Assembly (NCBI GenBank): GCA_019117045.1
Contig: DXAN01000023.1
Span: 127,527 to 191,526, forward strand
Source: Candidatus Mailhella merdigallinarum
GTDB taxonomy: Bacteria; Desulfobacterota; Desulfovibrionia; Desulfovibrionales; Desulfovibrionaceae
Direction: 5' to 3'
DNA length: 64,000 nt
In this document: positions 12,035-12,187 of the stretch, piece after piece
How positions within the stretch are numbered: position 1 is the first letter of the stretch
How the letters are laid out: each line of letters opens with the position of its first letter
The notes under the pieces: generated by a model
What the model saw: the letters and a program-made list of their open reading frames with translations, nothing else
Databases searched by the model: none
What the model was told of the DNA's origin: nothing
Translations under genes and position numbers: made by a program

Positions 12035-12187
12035 CGGTCGCCTGCTTTTCTTAGTGAAGAGCAGCATGGGACGGATTTCCGAACCAGCAAAGTTGTAACA
12101 TGTCTTCGACATTCATGTGCTCGCCTTATTACTCCGGAGCCTCGTGAACGGCAAGCACATGAATCTCGCTTCGCGAGTTAAAAGTAG
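12035..12187 (+). ncRNA. candidate retron non-coding RNA (msr/msd) in the 153-bp spacer upstream of the RT
   Basis: Long imperfect inverted repeat attcatgtgctcgcc ... ggcaagcacatgaat (about 15 to 19 bp stem, 24-nt loop). Additional hairpins: ctgcttttc-ttagt-gaagagcag, cggatttccg and ctcgcttcgcgag. Position and size fit a retron ncRNA. Confidence 0.45.

What the first reader, a model, noticed from the sequence alone, without database searches (positions are those of the whole stretch)
12035..12187. Structured 153-bp spacer upstream of the RT: candidate msr/msd
The spacer contains a long imperfect inverted repeat, gacattcatgtgctcgcc (loop ttattactccggagcctcgtgaac) ggcaagcacatgaatctcgc. The stem is about 15 to 19 bp and resembles an msd stem. 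Upstream are smaller hairpins (ctgcttttc/gaagagcag, cggatttccg) and the palindrome ctcgcttcgcgag. Retron ncRNAs are typically 150 to 250 nt, lie immediately 5' of the RT, and are flanked by a1/a2 inverted repeats. I could not confidently assign a1/a2 or the priming G. The ncRNA may extend into the 3' end of the upstream ORF.
Basis: seen in the sequence. Interest (0 to 1): 0.6.

Follow-up and report, generated by a model that had tools for sequence, protein, structure and literature searches.

The report
Retron msr/msd RNA gene, type III-A
The structured spacer is the template RNA gene (msr/msd) of a phosphoribosyltransferase-linked retron, a known kind of bacterial anti-phage system; here it is unannotated and sits in a gut Desulfovibrionaceae genome, which makes it a solid but ordinary find.

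Summary
The 153-bp spacer (12035-12187) lies between a PRTase-wHTH effector gene (10850-12034) and a retron reverse transcriptase (12188-13366). Both proteins are strong PADLOC type III-A hits.

The spacer is the core of a ~194-nt ncRNA (about 12013-12206) whose ends lie inside both ORFs.
- The a1/a2 stem has two arms of 12 and 8 bp, with two opposed invariant Gs at its inner end. G12034 is the likely branching G.
- The msr part holds SL1, a conserved SL2 (GGGACGGAUUUCCGAACC) and a weak SL3.
- The msd part holds a 14-bp long hairpin and a 13-nt hairpin, CUCGCUUCGCGAG.

The fold has z = -6.9 against shuffles. Across seven distinct homologous loci, 95% of pair cells are paired, against 30-47% in slid controls. 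Seventeen of 43 pairs show compensatory changes (0 of 500 shuffles reach this).

The layout matches the experimentally studied Retron-Eco11 (type III-A3): an effector-ncRNA-RT order, a bulged two-arm inverted repeat, a UUUA-G-CG branch context and a 13-nt DSLa followed by a long DSLb. No intrinsic terminator is present.

This is a new, divergent member of a known kind. msDNA production and the trigger are untested.

The parts
10850..12034 (+). Retron effector gene: N-terminal PRTase-like domain fused to a C-terminal winged helix (394 aa). Its last ~7 codons encode a1.
   Evidence: Pfam PF24390 7e-32 and PF24409 3e-14. PADLOC PRTase_III-A PDLC02933 2.2e-77. PRPP motif IIYVDDFIGSGNR and G-x14-PNNTP.
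11968..11996 (+). Promoter-like site TTTACA-17-TATTAT, which would start transcription a few bases before a1. This is a tentative internal promoter for ncRNA-RT.
   Evidence: 10 of 12 consensus match. Such sites are not enriched in this AT-rich region (15 found, 17.2 expected), and it overlaps conserved codons. Inference only.
12013..12033 (+). a1 (5' inverted repeat): outer arm UGGGGGAUACUC 12013-12024, bulged A12025, inner arm UGUAUCUA 12026-12033.
   Evidence: Pairs with 12185-12206 in the MFE and centroid folds. 20 pairs, 95% of cells paired, 8 pairs with compensatory changes across 7 loci.
12034..12034 (+). Candidate branching G (2'-OH primer). It is also the last base of the effector stop codon TAG.
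   Evidence: Invariant G directly 3' of a1 in all 7 loci, facing the invariant G12184. The context UCUA-G-CG matches the UUUA-G-CG at the start of the Eco11 ncRNA primer. 'Two opposing G residues' are a retron ncRNA hallmark (PMC7736814).
12043..12063 (+). msr stem-loop 1 (8 bp, UGCUUUUC/GAAGAGCA).
   Evidence: A 5-9 bp hairpin sits at the same position in all 8 loci although the sequence has diverged (12-19 of 33-37 aligned positions identical to the window in the more distant loci). Each folds better than 96-99.7% of its own shuffles.
12067..12086 (+). msr stem-loop 2, the conserved motif (U)GGGACGGAUUUCCGAACC. Probable RT recognition hairpin (inferred).
   Evidence: Almost invariant in all clade members, including L088. 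ACGGA-N2-3-CCGAAC occurs in every close-clade locus; among the 80 more distant loci held at that point it occurs only once, in L081 inside the RT-matching stretch.
12087..12110 (+). Weak SL3 and single-stranded linker. The msr/msd boundary and the 3' end of the msDNA are expected somewhere here.
   Evidence: A 2-bp GC/GY pair is kept in 7 of 7 loci, with G-U in 3. The position of the boundary is inferred by analogy with Eco11 and is not determined.
12111..12164 (+). msd long stem-loop (DSLb equivalent): 14-bp stem with a C/A mismatch, and an apical region carrying the conserved CUCCG-NN-G-Y-CUC motif.
   Evidence: 13 pairs, 9 with compensatory changes, 95.6% paired. Folds as DNA on the complementary strand: -18.3 kcal/mol, z = -3.8.
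12165..12177 (+). msd short hairpin CUCGCUUCGCGAG (13 nt; DSLa equivalent).
   Evidence: 5 pairs, 91% paired in 7 loci. Eco11 also has a 13-nt DSLa next to the long DSLb.
12178..12184 (+). UUAAAAG linker. A12183 is the predicted first templated base (dT1) and G12184 is the 'opposing G'.
   Evidence: AAAG is invariant in 7 loci. Placing the first templated base one position 5' of the opposing G follows Ec86 (my own knowledge) and Eco11's dT1. Inferred.
12185..12206 (+). a2 (3' inverted repeat): inner arm UAGAUGCA 12185-12192 (contains the RT start codon 12188-12190), bulge AA 12193-12194, outer arm GAGUAUCCCCCA 12195-12206.
12188..13366 (+). Retron reverse transcriptase (392 aa).
   Evidence: PADLOC RT_III-A 1.3e-121. 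Pfam RVT_1 1.7e-22. NAKFH 128-132, YADD 253-256, VITG. The exact sequence is HJA08986.1 (Ca. Mailhella merdigallinarum MAG), and a member of the same 90%-identity cluster is Bilophila wadsworthia WP_016360803.1.

Best explanation
The spacer is the core of the msr/msd non-coding RNA gene of a tripartite type III-A retron with the gene order effector-ncRNA-RT.

The RNA spans about 12013-12206 on the + strand and is transcribed with, or just ahead of, the RT. Its ends (a1 in the last codons of the PRTase gene, a2 in the first codons of the RT gene) pair into a bulged stem of 12 and 8 bp. That stem places G12034 opposite G12184.

Proposed steps, all inferred:
1. The RT binds the msr hairpins, most likely the conserved SL2.
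2. It uses the 2'-OH of G12034 as primer.
3. It copies the msd part leftwards from about A12183, through the 13-nt hairpin and the long hairpin, and stops near 12100.
4. The product is a branched msDNA of roughly 75-95 nt with two DNA stem-loops.

By homology with Retron-Eco11, the RT-msDNA complex would hold the PRTase-wHTH effector inactive. A phage factor acting on the msDNA (in Eco11, UvsW/D10-type helicases) would then unleash PRPP consumption and abortive infection.

Shown here: the gene families, the RNA architecture, its conservation and its covariation. Inferred: transcription, priming at G12034, the msDNA ends, the effector's biochemistry and the trigger.
For: - Protein context: PADLOC RT_III-A 1.3e-121 and PRTase_III-A 2.2e-77; Pfam PRTase-CE plus wHTH; motifs NAKFH, YADD, VITG, the PRPP loop and Gx14PNNxP.
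- Fold: -82.7 kcal/mol, z = -6.85.
- Covariation in 7 distinct loci whose RTs are 42-85% identical: 43 pairs, 95.0% of cells paired against 29.7-47.3% when partners are slid; 17 pairs with changes on both sides against 2-7 in slid controls; 0 of 500 shuffles reach the observed value on any measure (alifold).
- SL1 is a hairpin in all 8 loci despite sequence turnover.
- G12034 and G12184 are invariant.
- Wobble asymmetry fits a retron: the RNA-only helices have 9 G.U against 1 A.C, while the msd long stem has 1 G.U against 4 A.C, and A.C in the RNA becomes G.T in the cDNA. The numbers are small.
- The same two-arm repeat spanning the effector 3' end and the RT 5' end, with an inner arm ending in CUA|G or a variant (UUA|G in L004 and L008), recurs in roughly two thirds of the distant PRTase-RT loci examined, by eye from the best-repeat listing.
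- Retron-Eco11 (PMC12746101) has the same layout: the ncRNA overlaps both ORFs; the inverted repeat is 14 + 11 bp with two bulged A; the branching G follows; there are three msr stem-loops; the msd has a 13-nt DSLa and a long DSLb; and the branch context is UUUAGCG.
Against: - There is no experimental evidence for a transcript or msDNA from this locus.
- No curated Rfam family matches the spacer, even at E up to 10.
- My covariance model built from the clade does not detect the ncRNAs of more distant type III-A loci, so homology to the Eco11 ncRNA rests on architecture and short motifs rather than on an alignment.
- Only 7-8 independent sequences are available, and the antisense strand folds almost as well (-78.7 kcal/mol). 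Strand choice therefore rests on gene context, the branch-G geometry and a modest G.U excess.
- The effector's C-terminal peptide (LYVPSQYGGYSCI) does not fit the III-A3 signature YYPxxLRxx.
- The RT has ITG rather than the canonical VTG.
Confidence: 0.9

Rival explanations
1. The hairpins are a Rho-independent terminator or attenuator for the upstream effector gene and are unrelated to reverse transcription.
For: The hairpins sit directly after a stop codon. The consensus scan lists one terminator-like site at 12033-12046: a 5-bp stem followed by TTTCTTAG.
Against: - Neither the long hairpin nor the 13-nt hairpin is followed by a U-run; the sequence after them is UUAAAAGUAG.
- The single scan hit is a 5-bp stem whose 'T-tail' is the 5' arm of the conserved SL1.
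- A terminator does not explain a covarying 20-bp stem joining the effector's last codons to the RT's first codons, the invariant opposing Gs, or the conserved SL2.
- The 140-154 nt spacer is kept in all effector-RT homologues.
Confidence: 0.02
2. The structure is mainly a translational control element. The a1/a2 pairing sequesters the RT start codon (12188-12190 lies in the a2 inner arm) to couple or limit RT translation. No msDNA is made, because the retron is decayed or repurposed.
For: The AUG is inside the a2 inner arm. No strong Shine-Dalgarno sequence precedes it. L088 shows that cassettes of this clade can lose the effector.
Against: - Both ORFs are intact and carry their catalytic motifs.
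- The msd hairpins and the branch-G geometry are conserved beyond what start-codon occlusion would need.
- Occlusion of the RT start by a2 is also true of Eco11, which does make msDNA. This looks like an added property of retron ncRNAs, not an alternative to them.
Confidence: 0.05
3. It is the ncRNA of a different defence RT system (a DRT/UG class, or Abi-type) or a fragment of a group II intron, not a retron.
For: The RT gives weak hits to group_II_RT_mat (68 bits), Drt3a, Drt2 and Drt4.
Against: - All of those hits are far below their cut-offs: 68 against 300, 44 against 200, 40 against 390.
- Retron models score 100-400 bits.
- No group II intron or other Rfam family was found in 9000-16000.
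- The a1/a2 pair, the opposing Gs and the long msd hairpin are specific to retrons.
Confidence: 0.02

Closest known systems
Retron-Eco11 (type III-A3; Garcia-Rodriguez et al., NAR 2025, PMC12746101)
   Same: - Gene order is effector-ncRNA-RT on one strand.
- The effector is an N-terminal PRTase-like domain fused to a C-terminal winged helix, with a PRPP loop and Gx14PNNxP.
- The ncRNA overlaps the 3' end of the effector gene and the 5' end of the RT gene.
- The terminal repeat has two arms separated by bulged A residues.
- The branching G comes directly after the inner arm, in a UUA/CUA-G-CG context.
- There are about three msr stem-loops.
- The msd has a 13-nt hairpin followed by a long hairpin.
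- The best PADLOC effector model (PDLC02933) is the same as for loci that carry the III-A3 C-terminal signature.
   Different: - The arms are 12 + 8 bp here, against 14 + 11 bp.
- The long msd hairpin is about 54 nt, against 69 nt, so the predicted msDNA is about 75-95 nt, against 101 nt.
- The effector's C-terminal peptide is Y[VL]PxQY[GKR]G rather than YYPxxLRxx.
- The RT is only 29-36% identical to the PRTase-linked RTs found in genome representatives.
- SL2 and the apical msd motif are specific to this clade.
- The host is Desulfovibrionaceae, and the cassette is 29% GC.
- No function has been tested here.
Type IIIA ncRNA structural families of Mestre et al. 2020 (PMC7736814)
   Same: The general retron ncRNA plan is shared: a1/a2 hybridise, two opposing Gs are present, there are one to three msr hairpins, and the msd has one long stable stem-loop. 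The association is with PRTase-like clusters 67 and 113.
   Different: Their covariance models and supplementary tables were not available to me, so I could not score this RNA against them or check whether the Bilophila RT is in their dataset. In their Table 1 the ncRNA structure is 'nd' for variants III-A4 and III-A5.
Retron-Eco1 (Ec86, type II-A3)
   Same: The branch context is the same: a1 ends in ...UUA, then the branching G, then C, with an opposing G before a2 (my own knowledge of the Ec86 sequence). The Eco11 paper places RT-Eco11 and RT-Ec86 in the same clade 9.
   Different: The effector is an NDT-like protein, not a PRTase, and it lies downstream of the RT. The ncRNA does not overlap an upstream effector ORF. 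The Rfam retron msr model gave no hit here.

Membership tests
Retron (msr/msd ncRNA + RT) | RT of the retron lineage with the NAxxH motif, a YxDD active site and the VTG triplet | tested here: met
   PADLOC RT_III-A 1.3e-121; the next-best hits are all other retron RT models. NAKFH 128-132 and YADD 253-256 are present; the triplet is ITG within VITG rather than VTG.
Retron (msr/msd ncRNA + RT) | Structured ncRNA directly 5' of the RT on the same strand, closed by terminal inverted repeats a1/a2 | tested here: met
   a1 12013-12033 pairs with a2 12185-12206: 20 bp, with 8 pairs covarying in 7 loci.
Retron (msr/msd ncRNA + RT) | Conserved unpaired G at the inner end of a1, facing a second G | tested here: met
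   G12034 and G12184 are invariant in 7 of 7 loci. L088 has the same geometry.
Retron (msr/msd ncRNA + RT) | msr with one to three hairpins and msd with a long stable stem-loop | tested here: met
   SL1, SL2 and a weak SL3 are present. The msd has a 14-bp stem in which 9 of the 13 aligned pairs covary.
Retron (msr/msd ncRNA + RT) | Production of 2'-5' branched msDNA | not testable with these tools
   This needs msDNA extraction with RNase and debranching treatment, or sequencing of the RT-DNA.
Type III-A retron, variant A3 (protein cluster 67_3; Eco11) | Effector with an N-terminal PRTase-like domain fused to a C-terminal winged-helix domain | tested here: met
   PF24390 at residues 14-257 and PF24409 at residues 308-389, in one 394-aa ORF.
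Type III-A retron, variant A3 (protein cluster 67_3; Eco11) | PRPP-binding loop and the retron-specific Gx14PNNxP motif | tested here: met
   IIYVDDFIGSGNR and G-YGDTLTNIVFEWKC-PNNTP.
Type III-A retron, variant A3 (protein cluster 67_3; Eco11) | Conserved C-terminal peptide YYPxxLRxx | tested here: not met
   The window effector ends ...LYVPSQYGGYSCI, and the clade consensus is [LI]Y[LV]PxQY[GKR]G. The strict motif is seen in L012, L014, L015, L025 and L032, with near variants (YFP, YCP) in L011, L013 and L023. The variant (A3, A4 or A5) is therefore left open.
Type III-A retron, variant A3 (protein cluster 67_3; Eco11) | ncRNA between the effector and the RT, overlapping both ORFs, with a two-arm bulged inverted repeat, a 13-nt DSLa and a long DSLb | tested here: met
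   compared with the description of Eco11.
Type III-A retron, variant A3 (protein cluster 67_3; Eco11) | RT in clade 9 and effector in sub-cluster 67_3 by phylogeny | not tested
   The reference trees and clusters were not available. The only proxy is that the best PADLOC effector model (PDLC02933) is the same as for the YYPxxLR-bearing loci L012 and L014.
Type III-A retron, variant A3 (protein cluster 67_3; Eco11) | Defence triggered by phage UvsW/D10-type helicases through PRPP depletion | not testable with these tools
   This is an experimental property of Eco11.
Intrinsic (Rho-independent) terminator | GC-rich hairpin immediately followed by a U-tract | tested here: not met
   No T-run follows 12164 or 12177. 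The only scan hit, at 12033-12046, is a 5-bp stem inside the msr.
Any curated Rfam family (including retron msr and group II intron) | Covariance-model score at or near the gathering threshold | tested here: not met
   No hit overlaps 12013-12180 on the + strand at E up to 10. The only overlapping row is a chance-level mir-395 match on the - strand at 12185-12296 (17.7 bits against a gathering score of 56; E = 8.4).

The most novel reading that the evidence does not exclude
This small clade (about 10 protein clusters, all from gut or other metagenomes and Desulfovibrionaceae) may be a distinct sub-variant of PRTase retrons. It has its own RT-recognition hairpin (GGRACGGA-N2-3-CCGAACC), its own conserved apical msd motif (CUCCG-NN-G-Y-CUC) and a different effector C-terminal peptide (YxPxQY[GKR]G). 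That peptide is encoded by the a1 arm, so it co-varies with the RT N-terminus. Such a variant could sense a different phage trigger than the UvsW/D10 helicases that activate Eco11. It would also offer a compact msd for retron editing in anaerobes.
Probability: 0.3. Interest if true: 0.4.

Novelty: new member of a known kind. Interest (0 to 1): 0.3.

Why it matters
- **Annotation.** It turns three poorly annotated features into a complete tripartite anti-phage system in the Bilophila/Mailhella group, which includes the human gut bacterium Bilophila wadsworthia. In the public records these are a 'hypothetical protein', a 'reverse transcriptase family protein' and an unannotated spacer.
- **Testable coordinates.** It gives explicit coordinates for a1/a2, the branching G and the msd, which can be tested directly by a G12034 mutation and msDNA gels.
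- **Engineering.** Those coordinates are also what retron-based editing would need. The long msd hairpin loop at about 12126-12149 is the natural place to insert a donor sequence.
- **Coding constraint.** The same RNA stem constrains the C-terminus of the effector and the N-terminus of the RT. This is a neat example of overlapping RNA and protein constraints.

None of this changes how retrons are understood.

Tried and rejected
- **Rfam.** An E-value scan of 9000-16000 found nothing in the spacer.
- **Genome representatives.** A scan with an RT alignment returned only relatives of 36% identity or less (L004-L083). The window's own species was not recovered.
- **Covariance model.** Model R1, built from the 7-locus alignment, found only the clade itself, the partial locus L084 and L088. 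It did not find the ncRNAs of distant type III-A loci. I compared those by a search for inverted repeats instead.
- **DNA pattern scans.** The pattern ACGGA..CCGAACC..AAAGTARATG gave 8 metagenome hits. Only two are real by R1: L094 is identical to the window, and by eye L096 is close to L085. The other 6 did not match the model. The viral collection gave 0 hits.
- **Eco11 locus.** I tried to fetch an Eco11-like locus from complete E. coli genomes, using the Enterobacterales locus L006 as query. There was no match.
- **Plasmids.** No match to the cassette.
- **Supplementary files.** None are held for either key paper, so neither the Eco11 ncRNA sequence nor the Mestre RT list could be checked. 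The only Eco11 ncRNA sequence I obtained is the 24-nt primer.
- **Literature.** A search for 'retron' plus 'Bilophila' found nothing relevant.
- **Rival readings.** The terminator and group II intron/DRT readings were rejected. The idea that the element only controls translation was downgraded. See the rival explanations.
- **Strand.** Thermodynamics cannot choose the strand: -82.7 kcal/mol for the + strand against -78.7 for the - strand.

Full report
**1. What is at the coordinates**

The window has a PRTase-type ORF at 10850-12034 (+) that ends in TAG at 12032-12034. An RT ORF starts with ATG at 12188, so the spacer is exactly 12035-12187.

The region is a sharp GC peak of about 49%, between genes of 25-30% GC. 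It folds far better than shuffled sequence: 12020-12200 gives -63.7 kcal/mol, z = -4.4.

**2. The neighbours define the system**

- The downstream ORF is a retron RT. It scores PADLOC RT_III-A 1.3e-121, followed only by other retron RT models, and Pfam RVT_1. It carries NAKFH, YADD and VITG motifs.
- The upstream ORF is the matching effector. It scores PADLOC PRTase_III-A 2.2e-77 and Pfam PRTase-CE plus wHTH-PRTase_assc. It has the PRPP loop IIYVDDFIGSGNR and the retron-specific G-x14-PNNxP motif.
- Hits to group II intron maturase and to DRT models are far below their cut-offs.
- Rfam has nothing in the spacer.

**3. The RNA is larger than the spacer**

Folding 12011-12208 gives -82.7 kcal/mol, z = -6.85. 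From 5' to 3' the fold contains:

| Element | Coordinates | Notes |
|---|---|---|
| a1 outer arm | 12013-12024 | UGGGGGAUACUC |
| bulge | 12025 | A |
| a1 inner arm | 12026-12033 | UGUAUCUA |
| unpaired G | 12034 | candidate branching G |
| SL1 | 12043-12063 | 8 bp |
| SL2 | 12067-12086 | conserved motif |
| weak SL3 and linker | 12087-12110 | |
| long hairpin | 12111-12164 | 14-bp stem |
| short hairpin | 12165-12177 | 13 nt |
| linker | 12178-12184 | UUAAAAG |
| a2 inner arm | 12185-12192 | contains the RT AUG |
| bulge | 12193-12194 | AA |
| a2 outer arm | 12195-12206 | |

So a1 lies in the last codons of the effector gene and a2 in the first codons of the RT gene.

**4. Related loci**

The RT has few close relatives: about ten 90%-identity clusters at 42% identity or more, all from metagenome assemblies or MAGs. 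I fetched their contigs.

Every contig that reaches upstream has the same PRTase-wHTH gene, followed by a 140-154 nt spacer and then the RT. The exception is L088, discussed below.

Seven distinct sequences were aligned (A3). RNAalifold recovers the a1/a2 stem, both msd hairpins and SL2. Counting the pairs gave:

| Measure | Observed | Control |
|---|---|---|
| Cells forming a standard pair | 95.0% | 29.7-47.3% with partners slid by 1-3 columns |
| Pairs changed on both sides | 17 of 43 | 2-7 in slid controls |
| Shuffles reaching the observed value | 0 of 500, on every measure | |

Of the 17 compensatory pairs, 8 are in a1/a2 and 9 are in the long msd stem.

SL1 is too divergent for MAFFT to align. 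Folded alone, it is a 5-9 bp hairpin at the same position in all eight loci.

G12034 and G12184 are invariant. They form the 'two opposing G residues' that Mestre et al. highlight in retron ncRNAs.

L088 carries a related RT without an adjacent effector. It has quite different a1/a2 sequences (AGGUGAGAUAUUC/GAAUAUCUCACCU and AAUAUCUA/UAGAUAUU) but the same architecture and the same SL2.

**5. Strand**

The antisense strand folds nearly as well, at -78.7 kcal/mol, so energy alone does not decide the strand. Three things point to the + strand:
- It is the strand of the RT gene.
- The branch-G geometry fits it.
- The RNA-only helices contain 9 G.U pairs against 1 A.C pair.

The long msd stem shows the opposite bias, 1 G.U against 4 A.C. 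An A.C in the RNA is a G.T wobble in the cDNA, which is what one expects if that stem is selected as DNA. The numbers are small, so this is suggestive only.

**6. Comparison with what is known**

Mestre et al. 2020 defined the type III retrons as those linked to PRTase-like proteins. In variants A3-A5 the winged helix is fused to the PRTase.

Retron-Eco11 (type III-A3) has since been characterised:
- Its ncRNA overlaps the 3' end of the effector gene and the 5' end of the RT gene.
- Its inverted repeat has a 14-bp outer arm and an 11-bp inner arm, separated by two bulged A residues.
- The branching G follows the repeat.
- The msr has three short stem-loops.
- The 101-nt msDNA folds into a 13-nt DSLa and a 69-nt DSLb.
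- Its ncRNA primer begins TAA-TGTTTCATTTA-G-CG. That is the same branch context as UGUAUCUA-G-CG here.

The window element has the same plan, with a 12 + 8 bp repeat, a 13-nt DSLa and a DSLb of about 54 nt.

More distant PRTase-RT loci were also checked (29-36% RT identity; Acidobacteriota, Pseudomonas, Acinetobacter, Rhizobium, Enterobacterales, Leptospira). By eye, in roughly two thirds of the loci examined, one of the three best inverted repeats again joins the effector 3' end to the first 10-35 nt of the RT ORF. In most of these the inner arm ends in CUA|G (UUA|G in L004 and L008).

Their effectors hit the same PADLOC model as ours, and many carry the III-A3 C-terminal signature YYPxxLRxx. 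Ours does not: it ends LYVPSQYGGYSCI, and the clade consensus is Y[LV]PxQY[GKR]G. I therefore file the element as a type III-A retron that is Eco11-like in architecture, and I leave the variant open.

My clade-specific covariance model does not reach the distant ncRNAs. Homology to Eco11 at the RNA level is therefore architectural.

**7. Mechanism (inferred)**

1. The ncRNA is transcribed with the RT. This may happen from the upstream operon, since the effector gene starts 24 nt after hsdS. It may also happen from a promoter-like site at 11968-11996, which is not statistically distinguishable from background.
2. a1 and a2 pair.
3. The RT primes from the 2'-OH of G12034.
4. It copies from about A12183 leftwards and stops near 12100. 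The msDNA would be about 75-95 nt. Its DNA fold has z = -3.8.
5. By analogy with Eco11, the RT-msDNA-effector complex stays inert until a phage helicase acts on the msDNA. The PRTase then depletes PRPP and infection aborts.

None of these steps has been tested for this locus.

**8. Rivals**

- **Terminator.** No U-tract follows either hairpin, and a terminator cannot explain the covarying stem that bridges two ORFs.
- **Pure translational control.** The RT AUG is indeed buried in a2. The same is true of Eco11, which makes msDNA, so this is probably an extra property rather than an alternative.
- **Other RT systems or a group II intron.** The family scores exclude these.

**9. Context and novelty**

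The exact RT and effector sequences are in a Candidatus Mailhella merdigallinarum MAG. A member of the same 90%-identity cluster is in Bilophila wadsworthia 3_1_6. They are annotated only as 'reverse transcriptase family protein' and 'hypothetical protein'.

The cassette is about 29% GC in a genome region of about 58% GC. It sits next to a type I restriction-modification operon and a SoFic-like gene, which is a typical defence island.

I found no paper that mentions a retron in Bilophila. The supplementary lists of the classification paper could not be read.

**Verdict.** This is a well-supported, previously unannotated, divergent member of a known kind. Interest is modest.

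Noticed in passing
window 10850-13400, against the whole window: The retron cassette is about 29% GC in a region that is otherwise about 58% GC. This implies recent horizontal acquisition from a low-GC donor. Only the ncRNA rises to about 49% GC.
   Followed up: partly
window 5583-10825 and L003 1-1640: A type I RM operon (hsdR, hsdM, hsdS) ends 24 nt before the retron effector. L003 has the same hsdM-hsdS-effector-RT synteny. Its long central conserved block of HsdS is nearly identical, but its target-recognition domains differ (38% identity overall). 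RM and retron seem to travel as one unit.
   Followed up: partly
window 12013-12024 and 12195-12206; L089 2821-3023: The a1 outer arm encodes the effector's conserved C-terminal peptide (…QYGGYS…), and a2 encodes the RT N-terminus (MQRVSP…). RNA pairing therefore couples the two protein termini. In L089 both change together (QYRGKVAI* with MQQLSPYTF).
   Followed up: partly
L088 2814-2971 (RT at 3001-3996): A 52%-identical RT has an ncRNA of the same architecture and the same SL2 motif. It has no PRTase gene upstream, a shorter and different msd hairpin, and an RT ORF that lacks the first ~35 residues, so a2 is non-coding there. It lies between sugar-nucleotide and zinc ABC transporter genes. 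It may be an orphan or a decaying cassette.
   Followed up: partly
window 13581-14507 (-): A Fic-domain protein with a C-terminal wHTH is convergent with the RT. It scores PADLOC SoFic 8.8e-51 and is probably another defence gene of the island.
   Followed up: no
window 15682-18189 (-): An 835-aa ORF has no Pfam, PADLOC or NCBIfam hit. Its 90%-identity cluster has 61 members; the only name any source gives is 'hypothetical protein' from a Ca. Mailhella merdigallinarum MAG.
   Followed up: no
window 1002-3656 (+): An 884-aa ORF whose cluster members are named DUF927/Toprim domain protein in Bilophila and Desulfovibrio piger. This is typical of integrative mobile elements and suggests the whole left part of the window is a genomic island. 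No tRNA gene was found in the window.
   Followed up: no
protein P0061 (ENA contig, 668 aa): This protein is 97% identical to about a quarter of this RT, but otherwise carries UvrD/AAA helicase Pfam domains. It could be a gene fusion, a recombination product or a mis-assembly.
   Followed up: no
alignment A3, columns 115-169 against 11-30/191-211: There is a wobble asymmetry. The RNA-only helices have 9 G.U and 1 A.C. The long msd stem has 1 G.U and 4 A.C, and A.C in the RNA is G.T in the cDNA. This is consistent with selection on the DNA form of the msd stem, but the counts are small.
   Followed up: yes
window 12126-12149 and homologues: The apical part of the long msd hairpin carries a conserved motif, CUCCG-NN-G-Y-CUC-R-C, in all seven clade members although the stem below it covaries freely. 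It may be a protein-contact or termination element. It is absent from L088.
   Followed up: no
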